Below are positions 18,647 to 44,851 of a DNA stretch of 64,000 nucleotides, piece by piece; position 1 is the first letter of the stretch; each line of letters opens with the position of its first letter. Position numbers and translations under genes: made by a program. Source of the stretch: an uncultured Methanosarcinales archaeon. Lineage in GTDB: Archaea; Nanobdellota; Nanobdellia; Woesearchaeales; JAGWAF01. The stretch is from NCBI GenBank assembly GCA_964597775.1, contig CAZQZJ010000002.1, positions 357 to 64,356 on the forward strand, in the 5' to 3' direction. Under the pieces are notes generated by a model that did no database searches, was not told the origin of the DNA, and saw only the letters and a program-made list of their open reading frames with translations.

Positions 18647-18850
18647 GTACTTGTTAAGCCAGGTGTTATACAGAGGCGCTGGCGTGGGACGTCAAGATGC
18701 GAGCACTATTATGAAGTTCTACGCAAACCCGAGGAGGTTCCAGATAGGAGGGTTTCTTTGAATAGTTCTGTGAAGTGCGAGCGACGTCCCATTTTTGCGC
18801 AAGCAAAAATAAGCCAGTGCCTCTGCAATAGGTGTGGGCTTAACAAGTAC
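18647..18850 (+). ncRNA. Structured repeat element E, copy 1: 14-bp terminal helix gtacttgttaagcc/ggcttaacaagtac plus internal helices. Candidate ncRNA or MITE-like element
   Basis: Second copy at 35380-35638 with conserved core and compensatory stem change (cagaggcgctggc pairs gccagTgcctctg here and gccagCgcctctg in copy 2). Confidence 0.45.
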
Positions 18851-18867
18851 GTCATCTCCAAACCTTT

Positions 18868-27053: not shown

Positions 27054-27172
27054 AATTATATCAAATCACTTTAATTATAGGATATTTTTCCCAGATTAAA
27101 GTGATTTGATTATTAGGAAATAACCTTACTTTCATTTTTGAAATATCCTAAAATTAAGGCTATTTCCTATAG
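27054..27172. repeat. Double-hairpin intergenic repeat, copy 2
   Basis: Matches 1798-1916; stems identical, loop 1 differs. Confidence 0.6.
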
Positions 27173-33359: not shown

Positions 33360-34577
33360 CTAGGTATCATTCTCTTGTTTATCTTTAACCTTGTATATAG
33401 CAGTTGTGTCGTCATGATAAACTAGTTCAAATCCTTTAATAGTACGTAATGTGTTCATCTGATTAAGCAGTGGGTCTTCAGAGGTTTGGGCAAGTAGTTC
33501 ATAAAGAGGTATAGTGTGGATATCGCTTATTGTTACAAGTACGTATGATACATTTTTTTCTAGGAGAGTCTGTGCAGCAGTGTTTGGATCAGATGTAGTA
33601 AAAAAACTAGCAATAAGTGTTCCTGTGTGTTGAGATGATTGTGGTCCATATCTTTCTTCATCCCAGTATGGTTTATCTTGGATAGTATAGTCACCTAATG
33701 AAAACACTGTTTTATTATCTGCATCATCTGGTTGAATATTTATAGGGACTGTTGTTGCAACAACATTTCTTTTAGTTGTGGCGCGGATTATGTGTCCAAG
33801 TTCCCAATTGGTGATAAATACATCGTTTGGCAGTGTGTGTTTGGTAATCCAGGAAAATGCTTGATCAAGATCTGGTCTGCGTAGGATCCAAGAATATGTG
33901 TGTTCTTCTGTTGTATAGGATATTGTTGGAGCAAATATAAGGTCACAGGCACCAGGAAGATCGGTTTGGTAACAGCGTGTACTATCATTTGTTGTAATAC
34001 CTTGGCATATGCTTTGAAGAGAATAATTTGAAAATGCACAATCCTTAGTGTTCATCTTGTGTGTTGTTCTGCATGGATAATTTGTGGCAATACAGTCAAT
34101 GGTCCTATCAAGAAATCCATAAAGGCAAATGTCTTTGAGTTCAGGATTCTGTATAGAATTACATTGGGTAATATCATCATAAGTAAATGATAAATAAATC
34201 TTGCAATGATCACTAATACTGGTGTTGCTTATCAGGTTGCAGGTATGAGTGTCTGTCTGTTTTGATTCATGACATCCAAATCCTTGGTTGTCCTGAATGC
34301 ATGAGGCATAGTTTCTATTTCTTTGGCAAAGGTTGTTTTTTTCAATACAAGTATTGGTTTGAATTGTGTTATTGACAACCTGTTCAAACAAGCATAGCTG
34401 TTTTTGTGATTCTGTGAGATTATCACAAGAAGGTGTGGGAAATGTTAAAATAGTTTTAGAATCTTGTAGATTCCCTAATAGAATCGTTGGTTCTGATTTA
34501 GTTGCTGCTTGTTCAGATGTACATGCTGCTATAAATATGAGTAGTATACTTATTGTGATAGTAATATAATGTGGCAT
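33360..34577 (-). CDS. Secreted/lipoprotein-like Cys-rich protein, hypothetical
   Basis: Signal peptide with FIAACTS lipobox-like site; >20 Cys. Confidence 0.4.
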   Translation of the reverse strand: MPHYITITISILLIFIAACTSEQAATKSEPTILLGNLQDSKTILTFPTPSCDNLTESQKQLCLFEQVVNNTIQTNTCIEKNNLCQRNRNYASCIQDNQGFGCHESKQTDTHTCNLISNTSISDHCKIYLSFTYDDITQCNSIQNPELKDICLYGFLDRTIDCIATNYPCRTTHKMNTKDCAFSNYSLQSICQGITTNDSTRCYQTDLPGACDLIFAPTISYTTEEHTYSWILRRPDLDQAFSWITKHTLPNDVFITNWELGHIIRATTKRNVVATTVPINIQPDDADNKTVFSLGDYTIQDKPYWDEERYGPQSSQHTGTLIASFFTTSDPNTAAQTLLEKNVSYVLVTISDIHTIPLYELLAQTSEDPLLNQMNTLRTIKGFELVYHDDTTAIYKVKDKQENDT

Positions 34578-35379: not shown

Positions 35380-35638
35380 GTACTTGTTAAGTCTGGTGTT
35401 ATGCAGAGGCGCTGGCGTGGAACGCAACAATGTCGCATTTCTACCTTGTGCACAGCGAAAGCCGAAGGACTCGATTGTGCCAAGATGCGAGCACTATTAT
35501 GAATTTCTACGCAAACCTAAGGAGGTTCCAGATACAAGGGTTTCTTTGAATAGTTCTGTGAAGTGCGAGCGGCGTTGTGTGTTTGCGAGTGCAAAAACAA
35601 GCCAGCGCCTCTGCAATCGATGGGGGTCTAACAAGTAC
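35380..35638 (+). ncRNA. Structured repeat element E, copy 2 (with ~50-nt internal insertion relative to copy 1)
   Basis: Terminal helix gtacttgtta.../...taacaagtac, conserved 90-nt core, compensatory stem change vs copy 1. Confidence 0.45.
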
Positions 35639-35640
35639 GT

Positions 35641-37079: not shown

Positions 37080-40067
37080 TTAAGCAATTTTAACATATTG
37101 TTTGTTTACAAAAGCTGTGTCACTTCCATATCGTATTTGATACCAATCTCCAGATTCACCTACAATAGAAACTTGTGTATCACGGTTCAATGCGCCAATT
37201 CTATTGTTCCCTATCTTAGCTGAACTTCTCACATTCAGTCTACCACCTTGTGTTGTAACTACACCTAAATAAGGTGTCAAAACTGGAAGATTAATATGCT
37301 CTGTTTGGGATTGTGATGCCAATTCTTCCTTTTCAGCTTGTTTTGTGTTTGGAAACCATCTTCGTATTTGATATTCACCATTCCTAATGCCTTGGTTTAG
37401 TTTTGCAGTGCTGATAAGGTTGGTATATCTTCTGGGTACAATGGCAGGATCTGAGCCTGCAAATCTATCAACAAATCTTTTTCCATTAATCTCAATGACT
37501 CCCAAAACACCTTCTGTATGGCCATATCCTTGTTTATTAGGCTTTTTTAGTATGACATCTCCAGATTGAATATCCTCTGCATTTTTGATAAGTGGAAGAT
37601 CTCGGGATGACATCTTCCACAGAGAGCCTGTTGCAAAAGACGCATAAGTTCCTCTTAAATATTCTGTGAAATCCTCTTCAGAGTTTGGTGTCCAGGTAGG
37701 TTTGTATCCTGGAAGTGCTATCTTATCTCTTCCTCCTTTTTTTATCTCTGATTTTTGGAACTCAGTATAACATCTTATCTGAACATCTGAACAGGTTTCA
37801 CTTCCTGAAATAATAGTATAGGCATTATTATCAAATCCTCCGATATTGTATTGTGTTCCCTCTCCAGGGTTGTAAAGTGGGATATCAAACCTTCTTCCGC
37901 TTACAGTGTTTGAGAGTTCAGATGAATGTATTTGTAATGCTGTTTCATATGGTTGCGTTTTGACTCCTGGAACCCTGTGAAGACCAAGGTTTTCTATATA
38001 ATTTGCAAAGGCATTTGTTCCCTGTGGTGTTGTTATTCTTTCTCCGAAATATCCTACTACGTTCTGGCCTGCATCTAACATAAGCAGCTCTCCAGCATTG
38101 TTTATTTCATTCTCAAGAATTTCTAATTCACTTCTCAATCGTACAGCTGGGTGTTGCTGTTTCAAATTCCCAATTTGATTTTCTGTTATTCTTATTTGTT
38201 GGTCTAAATCTTCAACTTTTTTTCGAAAAGTGGTTTCTCTTTGTTGAATTTGACGATTGTTTTCTGATGTTTGAGTCAAGACACTTCTTGCTCTCTCTAA
38301 TTCCTTTTCTGCTTTTTCTTTTGATTTTTTAAGATCCTTTAATATACTGAGTTGTTGTTCATAATTTGTTAGATAAGAGGATAATTGACGGTCAGTAGAA
38401 GTCATATGTGAAATCTGGGCTCTTTTTTGTTGTACAAGCTCTGTTTTCTGTGCTATTTGAGAACGTAGTTCTGAGATTTTCTCAGCAGGAATTCTAGAGT
38501 CATAGAATATATTTGTATTATATTCATATTTTCTGGTTTTTCCATCATCTGTTTTGTAGTCAAGCATCATGTCTGTGCCAGCGTATGTTGGAAGAGTTCC
38601 AAATATCTTAGAAAGCAAAGATGGGGTTTTGAAAGGAGTGAGCAGAATCTCTTTACCATTGGTCACAGTTTCCCAATTACCATTTTTTATCCTCAATCTA
38701 CCTTCTGCTGTAGCATGTATTGTTTGGGGTGTTCCTTCTTCTGACCCAGGTTCAAGTATGACTTTTCCTCCTTCAAGATTAATAGATAATCTTGTAGGAA
38801 TGTTTTCTTCAGGACGATCAGGTGATAATTGGTGCATATCTTTAAATCCAGAAAATACTAAATTTCTTTGTTTAAGTTCTGATGTAAAACCTGTTCCAGA
38901 GGCGATAACAATGTCAGAACCCTGCATGAAATAGTTTGCATGTACAGGTAGGTGTTGTTGTGAGATAAATGAGTGGTATATTTCATTCCTTTCTGATCTA
39001 TATCTTCTCTGAATTTCTGCAATCTTATCACGAAGGAAAAACTCATTATCCCTTAACCTTGAAGCTTTCTCCAACAAATCTCTCGCTTCTATTTTAAGAT
39101 CTGATTCCTTAGCTGGATTAAGCTCTCTTTCCATTTCCTGTTCTTTCTCTTTAGCTTGTGTTATCATTTGTGAAGCTTGTTCTCTATTTTTTTTTGCCTT
39201 TGTGTACTGGAGTAACAGCGGTTCTAATATTTCTTTTTCTCTTTGCACAGAAGCCATTATCTGATTATTAGAGATATATCTAATATAAAGTGGATTATCT
39301 GTTGTTGTGTGATGCCAATAACTTACCAATGCATCAGAGTATGGGTCAAGTAGTGTGGGAATTCCTTGTGTAAATCGAATTGATCCCTTGTTGAGGATAT
39401 CTCCTTTTGGAAGATTTATCCTCTCCCCTTTGATAGTGATATCTCTATCAATCTTTGAAATTGTTGTGTCGCTGACAAGTAAGACATTTTCTGTTCTATC
39501 ATAATGAGCTTCTGTTGGTTTATCAAAAGTCACTCCATTGATGGAAGTAAATATTCCATAGATTTTCCCATTCTCAAAAGATAATTCTGTTCCACGTATC
39601 AGAACTCCGTCAATTGATGTTTCTTTATTTTCATCTGCAAAAAGTTCAAATCCAGAACTAGTAGATATCAATTCTCCAGAAAACGAATGGGGATTGTTAT
39701 TATTATCTATAATGTGGAGGTGTCCTGATTCGTCTATTTTAAAAGAAAAGAGGTGTTTTGTATCATAGATGTTAATACGATATTTATCTGATGTGATCCA
39801 TCCCCGTGTATCGAATCTAAAGTCAAACTGTGCATTGCCTGATTGGGATATTTTGACACCTTCTTCGTTAAGCATCTTGATAAATATGTCATTATGTTCA
39901 TTCATATGTTGTGGGTCTTTTGCAAAGAATTTCTTTAAAGCTTCTCTATGATTTTCATTGGTATAATCAATTTCATTCAGATTAAGCTCGATAGATTCTT
40001 CTTGTGCCTGGACTATTCTAAGGAGGAGGATAATCACTAAAATTGTGACAAAGCTACCTTGTTTCAT
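37080..40067 (-). CDS. Large secreted protein: signal peptide, two coiled-coil regions, NlpC/P60-like papain-fold domain, C-terminal SH3b domain
   Basis: SH3b signature (RLNVRSSAKIGNNRIGALNRDTQVSIVGESGDWYQIRYGSDTAFV); Cys...GDVIL...GHTEGVLGV pattern. Confidence 0.6.
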   Translation of the reverse strand: MKQGSFVTILVIILLLRIVQAQEESIELNLNEIDYTNENHREALKKFFAKDPQHMNEHNDIFIKMLNEEGVKISQSGNAQFDFRFDTRGWITSDKYRINIYDTKHLFSFKIDESGHLHIIDNNNNPHSFSGELISTSSGFELFADENKETSIDGVLIRGTELSFENGKIYGIFTSINGVTFDKPTEAHYDRTENVLLVSDTTISKIDRDITIKGERINLPKGDILNKGSIRFTQGIPTLLDPYSDALVSYWHHTTTDNPLYIRYISNNQIMASVQREKEILEPLLLQYTKAKKNREQASQMITQAKEKEQEMERELNPAKESDLKIEARDLLEKASRLRDNEFFLRDKIAEIQRRYRSERNEIYHSFISQQHLPVHANYFMQGSDIVIASGTGFTSELKQRNLVFSGFKDMHQLSPDRPEENIPTRLSINLEGGKVILEPGSEEGTPQTIHATAEGRLRIKNGNWETVTNGKEILLTPFKTPSLLSKIFGTLPTYAGTDMMLDYKTDDGKTRKYEYNTNIFYDSRIPAEKISELRSQIAQKTELVQQKRAQISHMTSTDRQLSSYLTNYEQQLSILKDLKKSKEKAEKELERARSVLTQTSENNRQIQQRETTFRKKVEDLDQQIRITENQIGNLKQQHPAVRLRSELEILENEINNAGELLMLDAGQNVVGYFGERITTPQGTNAFANYIENLGLHRVPGVKTQPYETALQIHSSELSNTVSGRRFDIPLYNPGEGTQYNIGGFDNNAYTIISGSETCSDVQIRCYTEFQKSEIKKGGRDKIALPGYKPTWTPNSEEDFTEYLRGTYASFATGSLWKMSSRDLPLIKNAEDIQSGDVILKKPNKQGYGHTEGVLGVIEINGKRFVDRFAGSDPAIVPRRYTNLISTAKLNQGIRNGEYQIRRWFPNTKQAEKEELASQSQTEHINLPVLTPYLGVVTTQGGRLNVRSSAKIGNNRIGALNRDTQVSIVGESGDWYQIRYGSDTAFVNKQYVKIA

Positions 40068-40609
40068 ATATTGCCAACCTCTTCTGGTATTGCTATGGCA
40101 AATCTTAAGGAGTTATTGTATGTAGTACTGAGATCCTGGATTGAGATAAGGTAATAGTAACTTCCTTCGTCTGAGAGATAAGGTGTTGTGGTAATCCTGG
40201 TAAGATTGTCTGCAAGATCGTCAAGACAGCTTAGGCAGAGATAACCAGGCATTGTGTCATATTTGTCTACGATTTTTGATGCTATTGATAGGAACTTTTG
40301 TAAGTGAGATCTTATTCTAATGTCAAAAGACGAGATTCGCTCTTCTTTTCCTTGGCTCTTGATTGAGATGGGATATGAGAGCATAATAATGACATCAGGG
40401 TCTGTTATCATAACCTCTGCTGCAGGTTTGCCTACATTTGCAATAAGGTATTTATCTGGAAATGTCTCTTGTACAGCATCTACACATCGTGGAACTGTAT
40501 TAATAATACCACGTCGTATCTCATCTGCTATAAGGTCTATGCTTGGTAGAAATGCTCTATTTCTCCAATAAACAGGTAAGGTTAGGGTGGACAGTTCAAG
40601 GCCATCCAT
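40064..40609 (-). CDS. Hypothetical protein, co-operonic with large secreted protein (ATGA overlap)
   Basis: 181-aa ORF, no motif recognised. Confidence 0.35.
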   Translation of the reverse strand: MDGLELSTLTLPVYWRNRAFLPSIDLIADEIRRGIINTVPRCVDAVQETFPDKYLIANVGKPAAEVMITDPDVIIMLSYPISIKSQGKEERISSFDIRIRSHLQKFLSIASKIVDKYDTMPGYLCLSCLDDLADNLTRITTTPYLSDEGSYYYLISIQDLSTTYNNSLRFAIAIPEEVGNI

Positions 40610-40633
40610 AGGGATTCCATCATAAAATCCTCC

Positions 40634-40831
40634 TTACCATCCAACAAAAGCAATTGTTTCAGATGCTGCATATTCAAAGCATGTATCAAGGAATGTGTAA
40701 ACTTCAGTGGATGTGTCAGGATCTGTGTTCAGAATCTTTCTTGTTATAGGAGATTCTGTATAAAAAATAAGCATCAAAATAATGATAAAGCATGTTCCAA
40801 AGATAAGATAGATAGAAATCTGCCCTTTCAT
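40634..40831 (-). CDS. Small membrane protein, hypothetical
   Basis: 65 aa with N-terminal TM; first ORF of the minus-strand gene string. Confidence 0.3.
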   Translation of the reverse strand: MKGQISIYLIFGTCFIIILMLIFYTESPITRKILNTDPDTSTEVYTFLDTCFEYAASETIAFVGW

Positions 40832-40963
40832 ATTTAAAATTGTAGTTTCAGGAAGTTTTAAATGTTGTCAAAACAACACACACAACTTCTAACAATTAAA
40901 TATAACTACTATCAAGTTACAAAATAAGCAACATTTAAAAGGCAAGACATATTTGTATGATAA

Positions 40964-41803
40964 ATGTTTCCCAAAAAGTCACCTTGCTCAAAGATGTTGC
41001 AGTATTTATTGTTTGCTGTAGCATCACTTTCAGGTTGTTCACAAGGAAATGTTGGAGAGGTGTACAGGGTAAAGGAGTTCTATCATAATGATAGGCAGTA
41101 TGTGGTGCATATTCCTAATAAGGGGTTTGAAGAGAAAGATGTATTGATCTGGTCTCTTTTTGGAAGAGAGCGCATAACAACAAGCCAGCATGTGGATAAA
41201 AGAAAGACCACGTACACAGGAAGGCGTGATCCGTATAACACAGAAAGAGAGGAAAATGAAGATAGATACAATCTTCCGAATCCAGTTGTCCATATTGAAT
41301 TATTTGATGATAATCATAATCAAATTCCTGAAAAAATGATCTATAGAAACCCATACCCTTTTGTATTGAATTGGGGATCTGAGGATAATACAGTAGGTTA
41401 TGTATGCATCAAAGGAAGGGTTGTTGAGGGTAGTAACAATCATCAAGATATTGATCCAAGCAAGGCATTTGTTCTCAATCACAAAACAGATCAATCCTTT
41501 TCAGTTGTATGTAGTGATACTAGCGCATTTGGTTTGGCTCAAATCATGACGACATGTTATGGCTTTACAGGCACAAATCTTTTTCCTGGAATAAAGATAT
41601 CTACTCCAGAGGAAGGTTCAGACATTCCTAAATTTGAGGATGGGTCATCCTTGCGTGACAGGGCAAAGAGTGGCTTTGAAAGATCTTATCCTAATCAGGA
41701 AGCAAAAATGCGTGTTTTAGAGGATACTGTTAATTTGATGGCACGTCAGGGATGCAAGACCCTTAATTATATTGGTGGAGTAGAAACAGCAGTAAAAGAC
41801 TGA
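40964..41803 (+). CDS. Lipoprotein, hypothetical
   Basis: Signal peptide with SLSGC lipobox-like site. Confidence 0.45.
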   Translation: MFPKKSPCSKMLQYLLFAVASLSGCSQGNVGEVYRVKEFYHNDRQYVVHIPNKGFEEKDVLIWSLFGRERITTSQHVDKRKTTYTGRRDPYNTEREENEDRYNLPNPVVHIELFDDNHNQIPEKMIYRNPYPFVLNWGSEDNTVGYVCIKGRVVEGSNNHQDIDPSKAFVLNHKTDQSFSVVCSDTSAFGLAQIMTTCYGFTGTNLFPGIKISTPEEGSDIPKFEDGSSLRDRAKSGFERSYPNQEAKMRVLEDTVNLMARQGCKTLNYIGGVETAVKD

Positions 41804-41807
41804 TAAC

Positions 41808-43166
41808 ATGAAACAAATATTCTATGCATTGATTCTTGCTGTTGCAGGATGTGGTATTCAGGATAGATTGGTTGATAAGAAAGAGTATAGAAAACCTGTT
41901 ATTAAAGACAGTATAATATATTCCATTGATAAAAATAGTGATAGATCATTCACTCCTCTTGAAATCAGGATTATTGCAGCTAGCAAAAATAAAACAAAAT
42001 TGTTAAAACCCCCTATTCTTTCACAGATTACAGATCCTGTGACAATGTATGCTGTTCTCAGAGCAAGAACTGGTTCAGGGGAATTGATTATCGCTGATAA
42101 TGATATATTTTCTCTGATGGCACAGGAAGGTGGTGTCTCAGCTAATGATGAAAATCTTCCATGGGATTCAATGCTTGAAGAATGTCTTACATGGTACAAA
42201 GTAGAACCAAGATCATACAATTTTAGTAATACTGGTTCAAGTAGAGAATTCAAGGGTTTTGTGAACATGCCTTTTACAGAAACCATCTGTCGTTCAAGAG
42301 CATCTGAATACCAGGCAGATTCAAATCCTACAAACATCTATCTTTCTGTTATTCCCTCTCTTGTGCCAAGAGAGATCCAACAAGGATTTGGAACAATGAG
42401 GTATAAGGTAGAATTTAATGATGGGAGGAGATGTGTCAAGACAGCTGGTGCAGATGATATGCATCCAACAACGGGTTATGATAATGTTTTCAGAATATCA
42501 AGTGCAATAACAAATATGCATCCTTTGATAAACGCAGCAACATTATGGGGAAATGTGCCTTATTGTTACGGTTCTGCAAGTCCTGTTCATGATGTTAAAC
42601 ACGGAAAAGATGAAAAACTCTGTAAAGAATGTAGCAATCATCAGAGTGAGAATTTTTATTCTGCAGACTGTGCAGATATGGTTAGCGCTGCATTGCGAAA
42701 AAGAGGAATAAAAATTGGATATGATGGAACAGGGTTCTTTGATCCGGCAAGAGGCAACACCTTCCTTATTGCATCAATTCGTCAACAGAGGATAACAGGG
42801 GAGTATCTTGATGTAAACAACCGAATTATTAGATTTGGGCAGGAGGGGGTAAGAGAAGGTGATCTTGTGTTGTGGGATAAGCATATTGGTATCCTTGCAC
42901 TTGACAGCAGTCATATACAGGTTCTTCCTGAGAAAAATAATTTAGAGAGAGATGGTTTATACAACTTTTTTAGTCAATATATCTTAGATTATTTCCTATC
43001 AAGAAAGCAGAAGGTGGCTAAGATTAATAGGCCACTTCCAAATAATGTGCTTGATACGTCAGATATTGTTTATCATCATTTAGCAAAAAATCCATGTTTT
43101 GAATATCTAGGTTCTGCATTCTCTAATATATTTAGGGTTGTAAGAATAAAAGAAAGACGTATATGA
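41808..43166 (+). CDS. Lipoprotein with C-terminal NlpC/P60-like cysteine peptidase domain
   Basis: LAVAGC lipobox; SADCADMVSAAL (Cys nucleophile context) and GDLVLWDKHIGILALDSSHIQV (His motifs) in NlpC/P60 order. Confidence 0.5.
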   Translation: MKQIFYALILAVAGCGIQDRLVDKKEYRKPVIKDSIIYSIDKNSDRSFTPLEIRIIAASKNKTKLLKPPILSQITDPVTMYAVLRARTGSGELIIADNDIFSLMAQEGGVSANDENLPWDSMLEECLTWYKVEPRSYNFSNTGSSREFKGFVNMPFTETICRSRASEYQADSNPTNIYLSVIPSLVPREIQQGFGTMRYKVEFNDGRRCVKTAGADDMHPTTGYDNVFRISSAITNMHPLINAATLWGNVPYCYGSASPVHDVKHGKDEKLCKECSNHQSENFYSADCADMVSAALRKRGIKIGYDGTGFFDPARGNTFLIASIRQQRITGEYLDVNNRIIRFGQEGVREGDLVLWDKHIGILALDSSHIQVLPEKNNLERDGLYNFFSQYILDYFLSRKQKVAKINRPLPNNVLDTSDIVYHHLAKNPCFEYLGSAFSNIFRVVRIKERRI

Positions 43167-43430
43167 TCTTTGAATCAACGATAAGTATGTGATAAATATG
43201 TGGTCCTAATATAGTTTAATATTTCAATTACCTTTCCAGGATTTCCTCTTCCAACAGGGAAATAACAAGGAATTACAAGGTATTCCATCCCAAAAATAGG
43301 TTTGCGTTAAAAATATCTTCCAAATCTCTTTTGTTCCAACAAATGGGAATCTTACTCAGTTATATTCTAGAGATGAGGTGGTTAAATCACTCATTAAACC
43401 CTCTAAGTGTAACTTATTCAATAGGTTTAG

Positions 43431-43514
43431 TGCAAGGAGCAGGATTCGAACCTGCGAACGCACTAAGCGAACAGCTCTTGAGGCTGCCCCGTTTGACCAC
43501 TCCGGAATCCTTGC
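43431..43514 (-). tRNA. tRNA-Leu (anticodon CAA), class II with long variable arm
   Basis: Hand-folded: acceptor GCAAGGA/UCCUUGC, anticodon loop CUCAAGA, 15-nt variable arm, T-arm GCAGGUUCGAAUCCUGC; CCA not encoded. Confidence 0.85.
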
Positions 43515-43732: not shown

Positions 43733-44101
43733 TTACTCTAATCCTTTGAGTTCAGCCTCAATCTTTGCAAGTTCTGTTTCAAGCACTGTGACTTTATCAG
43801 GTTCTGTTTTTTGTTGTGCAGTTGCTCTTCGATCTTCAATGATTTTTTTTACCTGTGTTGCAGGAGCTGCTTTAAGTGGGGCTTTTGGCATAGCATTTTT
43901 AAGGCGTTTGTTAAGAACAATGATCTCTTCTGCTATGCGTTTGTATTCATTAGTAAGTTCATGTTTTTCTTGGCGTAGTAATCCAATCTGGTCATATGAT
44001 TTAAGTGATCCAATAATCTCTTTGATTGAGAGAAGAATTTCTCTTCTAATAAGTGATGGATTAGGTACACCTACATAGAGTGGGTTTTGTTCCTGTGCCA
44101 T
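43733..44101 (-). CDS. Small coiled-coil protein, member of a tandem paralog trio
   Basis: N-terminal LYVGVPNPSLIRREILLSIKEI block similar to the N-terminal/C-terminal blocks of the next two genes. Confidence 0.35.
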   Translation of the reverse strand: MAQEQNPLYVGVPNPSLIRREILLSIKEIIGSLKSYDQIGLLRQEKHELTNEYKRIAEEIIVLNKRLKNAMPKAPLKAAPATQVKKIIEDRRATAQQKTEPDKVTVLETELAKIEAELKGLE

Positions 44102-44322
44102 TATTCTTCAAAGAGTTTTTTGTCAATAAGTTTGATTCTCTCTTCTACAGCTTCAAGATCTCTTTTCCATGATGCAACAGCAGCATCTTCCTGGTTTTTG
44201 AGGTCGTTGATACGTTCTAAAATCTGGTGTGCTCGTTTAATTTTGTCTTTGGTAAGATTAAGGATGTCAACAATATCTGTGCAATCCTCAATTTTCACAA
44301 AAACAGGCATTGCTTTATCCAT
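44101..44322 (-). CDS. Small coiled-coil protein, paralog (start at MDKAMPVFVKIED)
   Basis: VFVKIEDCTDIVDILNLTKDKIKR block; the longer ORF overlaps the upstream gene. Confidence 0.35.
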   Translation of the reverse strand: MDKAMPVFVKIEDCTDIVDILNLTKDKIKRAHQILERINDLKNQEDAAVASWKRDLEAVEERIKLIDKKLFEE

Positions 44323-44326
44323 AGAT

Positions 44327-44851
44327 TCACTCTCCGCTAAATATAACTGTGTCGATGTAATTGAGTTTTTTTTCCATGTCTGATAATTGGATTTTCCAAT
44401 CTGAAAAAATACGATCTTGTGCTGTTTTAATTTCTCCAAGTCTGATAATGGTGTTTTCGCTATCAGCTAGTGTAGTGCGCATAGCTTGAATACTGCTAAG
44501 AATAAGGTTATAGTCATGAGCACTGACAAAGACAGGTGTTGTGACTGGTGGGCGTGGTACAAGTTCTTCTTGAACCTGGATTGTTCTATCAGCCACATGT
44601 TTAGATGTTTCAATTGGTTGTTCTCGGAGTGTTGGCGTGCTTGGTGATGGTGTTTGAAGATCTGCAGCAGTGATTGTTGGGATTTCTGGTTGTTGTTCTA
44701 AAGATGCTGGTATCTTGAGTTCAGAAGAGATCTCCTCAAACCTAAGTGGTGGTGGAGGAGGTGGTAGTTCTGATGCAGACTTTTCCTTCTTGAATAAGTT
44801 TAATATTCCCACAACATCACCCCAAATGTAGTATATCTTCAGCAAGAACAC
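44327..44851 (-). CDS. Pro-rich linker protein with C-terminal paralog domain (start uncertain)
   Basis: PPPPPP linker, then VFVSAHDYNLILSSIQAMR block homologous to neighbours. Confidence 0.35.
   Translation of the reverse strand: MFLLKIYYIWGDVVGILNLFKKEKSASELPPPPPPLRFEEISSELKIPASLEQQPEIPTITAADLQTPSPSTPTLREQPIETSKHVADRTIQVQEELVPRPPVTTPVFVSAHDYNLILSSIQAMRTTLADSENTIIRLGEIKTAQDRIFSDWKIQLSDMEKKLNYIDTVIFSGE

What the first reader, a model, noticed from the sequence alone, without database searches (positions are those of the whole stretch)
37080..43166. Secreted lysis-like module: coiled-coil/NlpC-P60/SH3b giant protein plus an NlpC/P60-like lipoprotein
A 995-aa signal-peptide protein ends in a textbook bacterial-type SH3b domain and carries a Cys...His pattern (SETCSD...GDVIL...GHTEGVLGV) in NlpC/P60 order. 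Three nt away (ATGA overlap) lie a 181-aa and a 65-aa ORF. Divergently, two lipobox lipoproteins follow, the second with SADCADMV...GDLVLWDKHIGIL...SSHIQV, which is again NlpC/P60-like. Archaea that make no murein have no housekeeping use for peptidoglycan-type amidase/SH3b modules. In a small-genome, DPANN-like organism this looks like host-envelope attack or attachment machinery. A papain-fold hydrolase fused to a long coiled-coil stalk and SH3b anchor, paired with a lipoprotein hydrolase, is not a described archaeal system.
Basis: partly seen in the sequence, partly recalled or inferred. Interest (0 to 1): 0.8.

Follow-up and report, generated by a model that had tools for sequence, protein, structure and literature searches.

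The report
DPANN secreted cell-wall hydrolase gene module
A tiny groundwater archaeon carries a conserved gene cluster for two secreted enzymes built like bacterial cell-wall cutters, one with a bacterial wall-binding tail, which suggests it attaches to or attacks bacteria even though it has no such wall itself.

Summary

The 452-aa lipoprotein consists of Ig-like domains followed by a divergent NlpC/P60 domain with an invariant Cys288/His359/His423 triad.

New here:
- The 65-aa and 181-aa ORFs are one gene split by an in-frame TAA.
- That membrane-anchored partner, the large protein and the Ig-NlpC/P60 protein form a conserved gene neighbourhood. I found it in about 13 Woesearchaeota/Pacearchaeota-type loci.
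- An M23 peptidase lies alongside in two of these loci, and type IV pilus genes lie nearby in three.
- The large protein and its partner were found only in DPANN-type contigs. The NlpC/P60 family is otherwise bacterial.

Most likely this is an extracellular module that targets peptidoglycan. Secreted archaeal peptidoglycan hydrolases, including in DPANN, are already published, so I rate this a new variant of a known kind. No activity or substrate was tested.

The parts
37080..40067 (-). Gene for the 995-aa secreted 'BIG' protein: signal peptide, N-terminal domain, coiled coil 1, conserved middle domain, coiled coil 2, papain-like (DUF4846-type) domain, SH3b
   Evidence: ORF. Identical to NCBI MEK6875000.1, 'SH3 domain-containing protein [Nanoarchaeota archaeon]'. 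23 homologues found by exhaustive phmmer. Full-length architecture is conserved in 12 proteins.
40002..40067 (-). Signal peptide, residues 1-22 (MKQGSFVTILVIILLLRIVQA|Q)
   Evidence: Sequence inspection. All full-length homologues start with a comparable hydrophobic N-terminus. No signal-peptide predictor was available.
38973..39272 (-). Coiled-coil segment 1 (about residues 266-365)
   Evidence: Composition scan. Present only in the Woesearchaeota-type subfamily (P0042, P0051) in alignment A2. Boundaries are approximate.
38493..38972 (-). Conserved middle domain (about residues 366-525; NYFxxG..G.GF.S..N.IFPE..NG.W..DG..Y.Y), function unknown
   Evidence: Invariant G383, G391, F394, F405, G434, S442, G456, I460, N462, G463, W465, Y504, Y514 in A2. 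No Pfam hit.
38088..38492 (-). Coiled-coil segment 2 (about residues 526-660)
   Evidence: Composition scan. Weak SMC and surface-exclusion coiled-coil hits. Coiled-coil noise in the PDB profile search.
37338..38087 (-). C-terminal conserved region (residues 661-910). It holds the papain-like DUF4846-type catalytic core (residues 749-904; window 37356-37823), with Cys759 (37791-37793), Gly836-Asp837 and His850 (37518-37520)
37083..37265 (-). Bacterial-type SH3b domain (residues 935-995)
   Evidence: Pfam SH3_3 E=1.7e-10, above the gathering score. PDB 2kyb E=2.7e-7. Present in only 1 of 24 family members.
40064..40831 (-). Partner gene, annotated as a 65-aa plus a 181-aa ORF. It is a single homologue of the conserved membrane-anchored partner, interrupted by an in-frame TAA at 40634-40636. 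Its stop overlaps the BIG start codon (ATGA)
   Evidence: Both ORFs are in the same frame. End-to-end alignment with the partner genes of L085, L090 and L091, where the stop falls on a variable Q/S/N column just before an invariant GG. phmmer E=4e-15 to 1e-11. ATGA overlap. The sequence is identical in two independent assemblies.
40832..40963 (.). Divergent intergenic region between the partner/BIG operon and the lipoprotein operon (presumed promoters)
   Evidence: ORF layout. No promoter analysis was done.
40964..41803 (+). 279-aa lipobox protein (LSG-C25). Orphan of unknown function, 4 nt upstream of the NlpC/P60 gene
   Evidence: ORF. No Pfam, NCBIfam or PHROG hit. No homologue in any related locus.
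41808..43166 (+). 452-aa lipoprotein (lipobox VAG-C15). Ig-like beta domains (about residues 49-235) followed by a divergent NlpC/P60 domain (about residues 236-452) with Cys288 (42669-42671), His359 (42882-42884) and His423 (43074-43076)

Best explanation
The region encodes the local version of a gene module conserved in Woesearchaeota/Pacearchaeota-type DPANN archaea. The module makes extracellular cell-wall-hydrolase-like proteins.

Shown:
- The 995-aa protein has a Sec-type signal peptide (read by eye), coiled-coil segments, and a C-terminal papain-like domain. That domain has the NlpC/P60/CHAP fold, is DUF4846-like by sequence, and has conserved Cys759 and His850. In this genome only, a bacterial SH3b domain follows it.
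- A translationally coupled upstream gene encodes a protein with an N-terminal membrane anchor. Here it is cut by a TAA.
- A lipoprotein combines Ig-like domains with a divergent NlpC/P60 domain (Cys288/His359/His423). Its relatives outside DPANN are bacterial, mostly Myxococcota.
- The three genes travel together in most related loci, twice with an M23 peptidase.

Inferred:
- The enzymes are exported and cleave peptide or amide bonds of bacterial peptidoglycan at a contact site.
- In relatives the partner tethers, and perhaps activates, the large protein at the archaeal surface, and the coiled coils act as a stalk or as a regulator.
- The SH3b tail docks the catalytic domain on murein. The lipoprotein, and M23 where present, supply complementary bond specificities.
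- The purpose is attachment to, entry into, or killing of bacterial cells by an archaeon assumed (not checked beyond this window) to make no murein.
For: Archaeal identity of the contig: archaeal RNase P RNA; PCNA, RNase J and Hef; NCBI label Nanoarchaeota.

SH3b.

Catalytic domain of the large protein:
- Exhaustive search gave 23 homologues.
- Invariant C759, D761, G836-D837, G849; near-invariant H850 and D873.
- DUF4846 matched in 19 of 24 members. DUF4846 was classified as papain-like, probably NlpC/P60-like and cell-wall-degrading, in PMC10318531.
- In the model, Cys sits at a helix N-terminus and His at a strand start.
- One relative (P0028) carries the domain after an Rhs/YD-type junction, which is the slot for a toxin domain (a weak RHS hit in one family member, presumably P0028).

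Lipoprotein.

Synteny: the partner lies directly upstream in all 11 distinct loci that include upstream sequence. The NlpC/P60 homologue lies directly adjacent in about 10 of 13. M23 is present in 2, and a T2SSE ATPase lies within 10 kb in 3, one of them with an A24 prepilin peptidase and another with true pilins.

None of 80 bacterial loci carrying the NlpC/P60 family has BIG or the partner.

Published context for archaeal and DPANN murein-degrading enzymes.
Against: - No enzymatic or binding data exist.
- Profile comparison with the lipoprotein's NlpC/P60 family was negative.
- Pfam NLPC_P60 and CHAP do not hit the window protein.
- One family member (P0036) has Asp in place of the His.
- The partner gene is interrupted here.
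- The 64-kb window contains no M23, T2SSE or A24 gene.
- NlpC/P60-superfamily domains can act on non-murein substrates, and SH3b domains can bind other ligands.
- Whether this organism lacks murein was not checked beyond the window.
Confidence: 0.6

Rival explanations
1. The same enzymes act on a substrate other than bacterial murein. Candidates are the envelope of an archaeal host (S-layer proteins or pseudomurein isopeptide bonds), the organism's own surface, or secreted proteins and peptides. In that case the module serves archaeon-archaeon symbiosis or self-remodelling.
Against: The SH3b tail is closest to wall-binding domains of bacterial cell-wall hydrolases. M23 lysostaphin-type peptidases are co-located in two loci. 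The NlpC/P60 partner family is otherwise bacterial, mostly from Myxococcota, which make murein. The best structural matches are murein endopeptidases and amidases, not PeiR.
Confidence: 0.2
2. The proteins are mainly adhesins or pseudo-enzymes. The papain-like and SH3b domains serve only to bind a partner cell surface, and the coiled coils act as a spacer.
For: Large size, coiled coils and Ig-like domains are typical of adhesins. One family member has lost the His.
Against: The Cys, the Gly-Asp motif and the His are invariant or nearly invariant across highly divergent sequences (19-25% identity) in both families. That pattern is what selection on catalysis would produce.
Confidence: 0.1
3. 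The cluster is a remnant of a virus or mobile element, acting as a lysis or entry cassette that landed next to tRNA-Leu.
For: tRNA-Leu lies 264 nt beyond the lipoprotein gene. GC is slightly lower at 38-40 kb. In the Woesearchaeota locus L085 two integrase genes follow the homologue. CHAP+SH3b is an endolysin architecture.
Against: No integrase or viral gene lies in the region. Scans of viral contigs found no relative of either protein. The only PHROG hit covers just the SH3b part. Homologous modules sit among housekeeping genes such as ribosomal protein and tRNA synthetase genes. The proteins carry Sec or lipoprotein signals rather than holin partners.
Confidence: 0.05

Closest known systems
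[not shown]
   Different: Those enzymes remodel the producer's own murein during growth and are driven by FtsEX. Here the producer is an archaeon. The protein is two to three times larger, with two extra conserved domains of unknown fold. The catalytic domain is DUF4846-like by sequence. No FtsEX genes are linked.
CHAP+SH3b phage endolysins and bacteriocin-like lysins (Ly7917, LysGH15, PlyGRCS, lysostaphin-type targeting)
   Different: Endolysins are small, lack signal peptides and coiled coils, and are phage encoded. This protein is 995 aa, is exported, is chromosomal, and belongs to a family confined to DPANN-type contigs in which SH3b is the exception (1 of 24).
Pfam DUF4846 (PF16138), predicted papain-like/NlpC-P60-like family
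   Same: 19 of 24 homologues of the catalytic region match it, best E=1.1e-13. It shares the Gly-Asp motif. It was proposed to be a cell-wall-degrading NlpC/P60-like domain in PMC10318531.
   Different: DUF4846 is described as a family of about 300-residue bacterial proteins (mainly Bacteroides, by my recollection of the Pfam entry) with no experimental data. The window protein itself scores only 12.4 bits against a cut-off of 37. Here the domain is the C-terminal module of 580-995-aa archaeal proteins.
Archaeal modular peptidoglycan hydrolases (Strock et al., PLoS Biol 2025, PMC12352652) and the large murein-lytic transglycosylase proteins of Woesearchaeota/Pacearchaeota (PMC8204110, PMC9723730)
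   Same: Secreted archaeal proteins that pair a murein-cleaving catalytic domain of bacterial type with a wall-binding domain. They are enriched in Nanoarchaeota and interpreted as weapons against bacteria or tools for attaching to them.
   Different: Those surveys rely on recognised Pfam catalytic domains (NLPC_P60, CHAP, SLT, M23 and others). DUF4846 and these accessions do not appear in the held parts of their tables. Neither protein here passes a catalytic Pfam threshold. The conserved partner/BIG/NlpC-P60 neighbourhood was not found in the searched literature.
Canonical NlpC/P60 endopeptidases (MEROPS C40: MepS/Spr, LytE, CwlO, YkfC-type with accessory domains)
   Different: It scores below the Pfam threshold (13.2 bits against 23). 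It has N-terminal Ig-like domains in place of SH3b or LysM, and a roughly 45-residue insertion between His359 and His423. It is encoded by an archaeon.

Membership tests
Bacterial SH3b (Pfam SH3_3, PF08239): C-terminus of the 995-aa protein | Profile match above the curated gathering score | tested here: met
   41.4 bits against a cut-off of 27, E=1.7e-10, residues 943-993 covering profile positions 2-54 of 54. Sequence matches to solved SH3b domains 2kyb, 2kt8, 2krs and 2kq8.
Bacterial SH3b (Pfam SH3_3, PF08239): C-terminus of the 995-aa protein | Binds peptidoglycan | not testable with these tools
   Needs a pull-down with purified sacculi.
NlpC/P60 (Pfam PF00877, MEROPS C40): 452-aa lipoprotein | Profile match above the gathering score | tested here: not met
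   13.2 bits against 23, E=0.089. 8 of 15 family members hit weakly, best E=0.0026. A DPANN homologue scores 21.8 bits.
NlpC/P60 (Pfam PF00877, MEROPS C40): 452-aa lipoprotein | Papain-like alpha+beta fold that superposes on solved C40 enzymes | tested here: met
   [not shown]
NlpC/P60 (Pfam PF00877, MEROPS C40): 452-aa lipoprotein | Conserved catalytic Cys, His and a third polar residue, in that order | tested here: met
   C288, H359 and H423 are invariant in 15 sequences at 25-31% identity. The same motifs occur in the DPANN homologues. Geometry in the model was not measured.
NlpC/P60 (Pfam PF00877, MEROPS C40): 452-aa lipoprotein | Cleaves murein peptide bonds | not testable with these tools
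   Needs a biochemical assay.
DUF4846 / papain-like NlpC-P60-CHAP superfamily: residues 661-910 of the 995-aa protein | Pfam DUF4846 profile match above the gathering score | tested here: inconclusive
   The window protein alone gives 12.4 bits against 37, E=0.11. However, 19 of its 24 homologues match, best E=1.1e-13. The precomputed DUF4846 hits of P0028 and P0029 are strong (unmarked in the tool's table), those of P0025 weak and of P0023 faint.
DUF4846 / papain-like NlpC-P60-CHAP superfamily: residues 661-910 of the 995-aa protein | Papain-like fold with Cys at a helix N-terminus and His on a beta strand | tested here: met
   [not shown]
DUF4846 / papain-like NlpC-P60-CHAP superfamily: residues 661-910 of the 995-aa protein | Conservation of the Cys, the GD motif and the His across the family | tested here: met
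   C759, D761, G836, D837 and G849 are invariant. H850 and D873 are conserved in at least 90% of sequences. One exception, P0036, has GYGDT.
DUF4846 / papain-like NlpC-P60-CHAP superfamily: residues 661-910 of the 995-aa protein | Canonical NLPC_P60 or CHAP sequence-profile match | tested here: not met
   No hit at E<=1 for the window protein. One homologue hits CHAP at E=0.088. hhalign against the lipoprotein's NlpC/P60 family gave probability below 1%.
Archaeal type IV pilin / class III signal peptide protein: partner gene (65+181 aa) | N-terminal [KR]-G-Q motif followed by a hydrophobic helix | tested here: inconclusive
   The motif is MKGQISIYLIFG..., conserved as K[RK][GS]Q[IA]xIF in the partners of other loci. 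It is the only such N-terminus in the window. It lacks the E at +5 and the L at +9 of the QxSxExxxL consensus (recalled from the Pfam Class_IIIsignal description).
Archaeal type IV pilin / class III signal peptide protein: partner gene (65+181 aa) | Profile match to Pilin_N, arch_flag_Nterm or Class_IIIsignal | tested here: not met
   No hit for any partner in Pfam or NCBIfam at E<=1. True pilins in locus L091 do hit TIGR02537, at 33 and 26 bits against a cut-off of 20.
Archaeal type IV pilin / class III signal peptide protein: partner gene (65+181 aa) | Genomic linkage to a pilus ATPase or prepilin peptidase | tested here: inconclusive
   A T2SSE ATPase lies within 10 kb in 3 of about 13 loci, and an A24 peptidase in 1. 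The window has neither.
Modular archaeal peptidoglycan hydrolase, as defined in PMC12352652 | One recognised Pfam catalytic domain plus one recognised wall-binding domain in the same protein | tested here: not met
   The 995-aa protein has SH3_3 but no listed catalytic Pfam domain. The lipoprotein has neither above threshold. DUF4846 is absent from the held parts of their domain list. Functionally it fits the class, but it would be missed by their screen.

The most novel reading that the evidence does not exclude
Woesearchaeota/Pacearchaeota-type DPANN carry a dedicated, lineage-specific apparatus for breaching cell walls. In this reading a membrane-anchored, possibly pilin-like, adaptor mounts a large coiled-coil DUF4846 hydrolase at the cell surface or on a type IV pilus. 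There it works with an Ig-NlpC/P60 enzyme of bacterial ancestry and an M23 peptidase to open the murein of bacterial host cells. That would be molecular evidence that a major DPANN clade parasitises or preys on bacteria rather than archaea. In this genome the adaptor has been lost, and an SH3b wall anchor was acquired in its place.
Probability: 0.25. Interest if true: 0.85.

Novelty: new variant of a known kind. Interest (0 to 1): 0.6.

Why it matters
Whether any DPANN archaea use bacteria as hosts or prey is still an open question (PMC8204110). Published surveys of archaeal peptidoglycan hydrolases depend on recognised Pfam catalytic domains, and both proteins here would escape them.

The work defines an unannotated family found only in DPANN-type contigs: large secreted proteins that end in a DUF4846-type papain-like domain. 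It also defines that family's obligatory upstream partner and a syntenic Ig-NlpC/P60 enzyme whose other relatives are bacterial.

This gives concrete, clonable candidates and mutation targets (C759, H850, C288, H359) for testing activity on bacterial walls. It also gives a synteny signature for finding such systems in other genomes. It would be the first functional lead for DUF4846.

Tried and rejected
- Word-indexed homology searches with the full 995-aa protein and with residues 660-940 found only the protein itself or nothing. The exhaustive phmmer search was needed.
- Sequence searches of the PDB with the lipoprotein alone found nothing. Its family profile gave only sub-threshold NlpC/P60 hits. 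The BIG family profile returned coiled-coil noise.
- hhalign of the BIG C-domain against the lipoprotein's NlpC/P60 family showed no detectable relationship.
- Foldseek against the PDB with the BIG C-terminal model gave no significant hit. The afdb50 library was unavailable.
- A virus or prophage origin was considered. Two viral-contig scans were negative, and PHROGs matched only the SH3b part.
- The idea that the partner is a true type IV pilin is not supported by Pfam or NCBIfam profiles. I kept it only as a possibility.
It was redone with a trimmed alignment.
- A one-off horizontal transfer of the lipoprotein into this genome alone was rejected, because DPANN relatives carry syntenic homologues.
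- The 160-nt intergenic repeat was tested as a structured RNA. It has no Rfam hit and no excess folding energy.

Full report
**Organism and setting.** The window is a chromosomal piece of a DPANN-type archaeon.
- It carries an archaeal RNase P RNA, PCNA and RNase J next to the finding, and Hef, primase and a ribosomal protein cluster elsewhere.
- The same sequence, 100% identical, occurs in an ENA assembly of Hainich groundwater (0.2-um fraction) and in a Logan assembly of a single sequencing run.
- NCBI labels the proteins 'Nanoarchaeota archaeon'.
- The region's GC content (0.35-0.37) is close to that of the rest of the window.

**Checking the observation.** All five ORFs are present as described.
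- The 995-aa protein starts with a signal-peptide-like N-terminus. This was read by eye.
- It ends in a genuine bacterial SH3b domain. Pfam SH3_3 gives E=1.7e-10, above the gathering score, and solved SH3b domains of cell-wall hydrolases match by sequence.
- The ATGA overlap with the 181-aa ORF is real.
- Both divergent ORFs have lipoboxes: LSG-C25 and VAG-C15.

**The catalytic domain of the 995-aa protein.** Standard profiles see nothing between the coiled coils and SH3b. There is no NLPC_P60 or CHAP hit, only a weak DUF4846 hit (E=0.11). Word-indexed searches found no relatives.

An exhaustive phmmer search with residues 660-940 found 23 relatives, with E down to 4e-17. All are proteins of 580-940 aa that carry the matching domain at their C-terminus.

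A full-length alignment of 12 of them shows one shared architecture: signal peptide, N-terminal domain, a conserved middle domain, a coiled coil and the C-terminal domain. C759, D761, G836-D837 and G849 are invariant, and H850 and D873 are nearly invariant. The motifs are QTC[AS]DTQ, PGD[IL]I, GYGHT and FAGSDPAID.

Scanned individually, 19 of the 24 members match Pfam DUF4846, best E=1.1e-13. [quoted passage not shown]

An AlphaFold model of residues 655-995, built from this alignment, has a confident core (pLDDT 79-95 for residues 749-904). Cys759 sits at the N-terminus of a helix and His850 at the start of a strand.

- several phage tail lysins

Caveats: Foldseek against the PDB gave no significant hit. 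Profile-profile comparison with the lipoprotein's NlpC/P60 family was negative. I could not measure the Cys-His distance in the model.

Only the window protein carries SH3b (1 of 24). One relative, P0028, places the domain directly after an Rhs/YD-type junction (...YDPDTGRFISVDP...NPMNYIDPTGM), which is the slot for the toxin domain in polymorphic toxins.

**The lipoprotein.** The 452-aa protein has 14 detectable relatives at 25-31% identity. D287-C288-A289-D290, G351-D352-L353, H359, D419 and H423 are invariant among them. That is the NlpC/P60 Cys-His-His order.

Pfam NLPC_P60 is sub-threshold for the window protein (E=0.089) and for 8 of the 15 family members.

In species-representative genomes the family has 149 hits, and the 80 best loci kept are almost all Myxococcota (Kofleriaceae and Haliangiales). 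The rest include a WOR-3 bacterium and a few others.

**The partner gene.** The 65-aa and 181-aa ORFs are in the same frame, separated by a TAA and eight codons.

In related loci, a single gene of 245-350 aa sits immediately upstream of the large gene and usually overlaps it by 4 nt. The window's two pieces align with that gene end to end. They share the N-terminus K[RK][GS]Q[IA]xIF plus a hydrophobic helix, and the conserved Cys, GGY and CLxC motifs (phmmer E down to 4e-15).

The TAA falls on a variable Q/S/N column just before the invariant GG. So the window gene carries a nonsense interruption, reproduced in two assemblies. It may be a recent pseudogene, a readthrough site or a population variant.

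The N-terminus resembles an archaeal class III (prepilin) signal. However, no pilin profile matches any partner, while real pilins in locus L091 do match. I therefore call it a membrane-anchored, possibly pilin-like, protein.

**Conserved neighbourhood.** I fetched contigs for family members, namely P0051, P0022, P0025, P0026, P0023 and P0029, plus the Rhs-fused relative P0028 and 13 loci from a metagenome scan. I then searched their six-frame ORFs with seed sequences.

Among about 13 non-identical loci:
- The partner lies directly upstream in all 11 that include upstream sequence.
- A homologue of the window's Ig-NlpC/P60 protein lies directly adjacent, tail to tail, in 10. BLASTP of the L089 and L091 copies to the window protein gives about 1e-26, and the same motifs are present. 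The L089 copy scores 21.8 bits against Pfam NLPC_P60.
- An M23 peptidase follows in 2.
- A T2SSE-type pilus ATPase lies within 10 kb in 3. One of these also has an A24 prepilin peptidase, and another has true pilins.

Named members come from Pacearchaeota and Woesearchaeota. Locus L091 carries archaeal ribosomal protein genes.

None of the 80 bacterial loci holding the NlpC/P60 family contains the large protein or the partner. One DPANN copy of the NlpC/P60 protein is 47% identical to the WOR-3 bacterial protein, which points to transfer between the two domains of life.

In the window the arrangement is permuted. The NlpC/P60 gene lies divergently upstream, preceded by an orphan 279-aa lipoprotein. 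No M23, T2SSE or A24 gene occurs anywhere in the 64 kb.

**Interpretation.** The domain identities and the synteny are shown. The function is inferred.

Two or three different murein-type peptidase folds (DUF4846/NlpC-P60-like, NlpC/P60 and M23) are all exported, and in this genome one carries a bacterial wall-binding SH3b. This combination in archaea, which are not known to make murein, argues most simply for action on bacterial peptidoglycan outside the cell.

The coiled coils could act as a stalk. Alternatively, as in CwlO, PcsB and RipC, they could act as a regulatory element, with the co-translated membrane protein serving as tether or activator.

The only family member with an SH3b tail is also the only one seen with a broken partner. 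This may mean one anchoring mode has replaced the other, but that is speculation.

The rival explanations are a non-murein substrate, a purely adhesive role, and a mobile-element lysis cassette. They are listed with their evidence in the rival explanations section.

**Novelty.** The general concept is published.
- Modular peptidoglycan hydrolases occur in about 5% of archaeal genomes and are prominent in Nanoarchaeota, and one haloarchaeal enzyme kills bacteria (PMC12352652).
- Large murein-lytic proteins of Pacearchaeota and Woesearchaeota have been proposed as tools for attaching to bacteria (PMC8204110, PMC9723730).
- A coiled coil fused to NlpC/P60 or CHAP is a standard bacterial design.

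What I did not find described in the searched literature:
- this family of large DUF4846-ending proteins, found only in DPANN-type contigs
- its obligatory partner
- the conserved pairing with an Ig-NlpC/P60 enzyme
- the SH3b fusion

Both proteins would be missed by screens based on Pfam thresholds. I therefore rate it a new variant of a known kind, of moderate to good interest.

Noticed in passing
window 40634-40636 (within 40064-40831, minus strand): An in-frame TAA splits a conserved partner gene into the annotated 65-aa and 181-aa ORFs. Downstream of it there are no further stops and the conserved motifs are intact. It could be a recent pseudogene, a readthrough site or a strain variant. 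It is identical in two assemblies.
   Followed up: partly
window 35481-35640 and 18693-18852; also about 27086-27172 and 1830-1917: Intergenic direct repeats: about 160 nt at 87% identity and about 88 nt at 93% (alignment). They are relatively GC-rich. There is no Rfam match and no excess folding stability on either strand (z=0.85 and 0.53). Their nature is unexplained.
   Followed up: partly
window 43430-43514 (minus strand): tRNA-Leu(CAA) lies 264 nt beyond the end of the NlpC/P60 lipoprotein gene. GC dips slightly at 38-40 kb. No integrase or att repeat was looked for or seen.
   Followed up: no
window 40964-41803 (plus strand): The 279-aa lipobox protein, co-oriented with the NlpC/P60 gene and 4 nt upstream of it, is a complete orphan. 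It has no family hit and no homologue in any related locus.
   Followed up: partly
window 33360-34577 (minus strand): A 405-aa Cys-rich protein with a lipobox-like N-terminus (...LIFIAAC) and no family assignment. It shows weak similarity to Cys-rich lipoproteins near the Woesearchaeota homologue (E about 0.02-0.03).
   Followed up: no
L085 1-8000 and 11000-18800 (Woesearchaeota contig, locus of P0051): About 13 co-directional small genes, nearly all starting with M..KKG/KKA plus a hydrophobic helix, precede the partner and large genes. None matches a pilin profile. Two phage-integrase genes and a 671-aa protein with a faint Peptidase_C1 signal follow.
   Followed up: partly
L006/L003 (WOR-3 bacterium, protein P0003) versus L089 10076-11143: The bacterial Ig-NlpC/P60 protein P0003 is 47% identical to a DPANN copy, closer than the DPANN copies are to the window protein (23-34%). 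This points to transfer between bacteria and archaea, direction unknown. One hit, L007, is labelled 'Methanosarcinales archaeon' and was not checked.
   Followed up: partly
L096 701-1840 (protein P0028): A 379-aa protein joins an Rhs/YD-type C-terminal junction to the DUF4846-like domain. It sits next to MazE and ParE toxin-antitoxin genes.
   Followed up: no
L091 17-3274 (minus strand): The T2SSE/PilB-type ATPase near the homologous module contains an intein with a LAGLIDADG endonuclease.
   Followed up: no
window 43733-44851 (minus strand): Three small ORFs (122, 112 and 174 aa), coiled-coil-like by eye, between tRNA-Leu and the MJ0538/ScpB/GyrA genes have no Pfam match.
   Followed up: no
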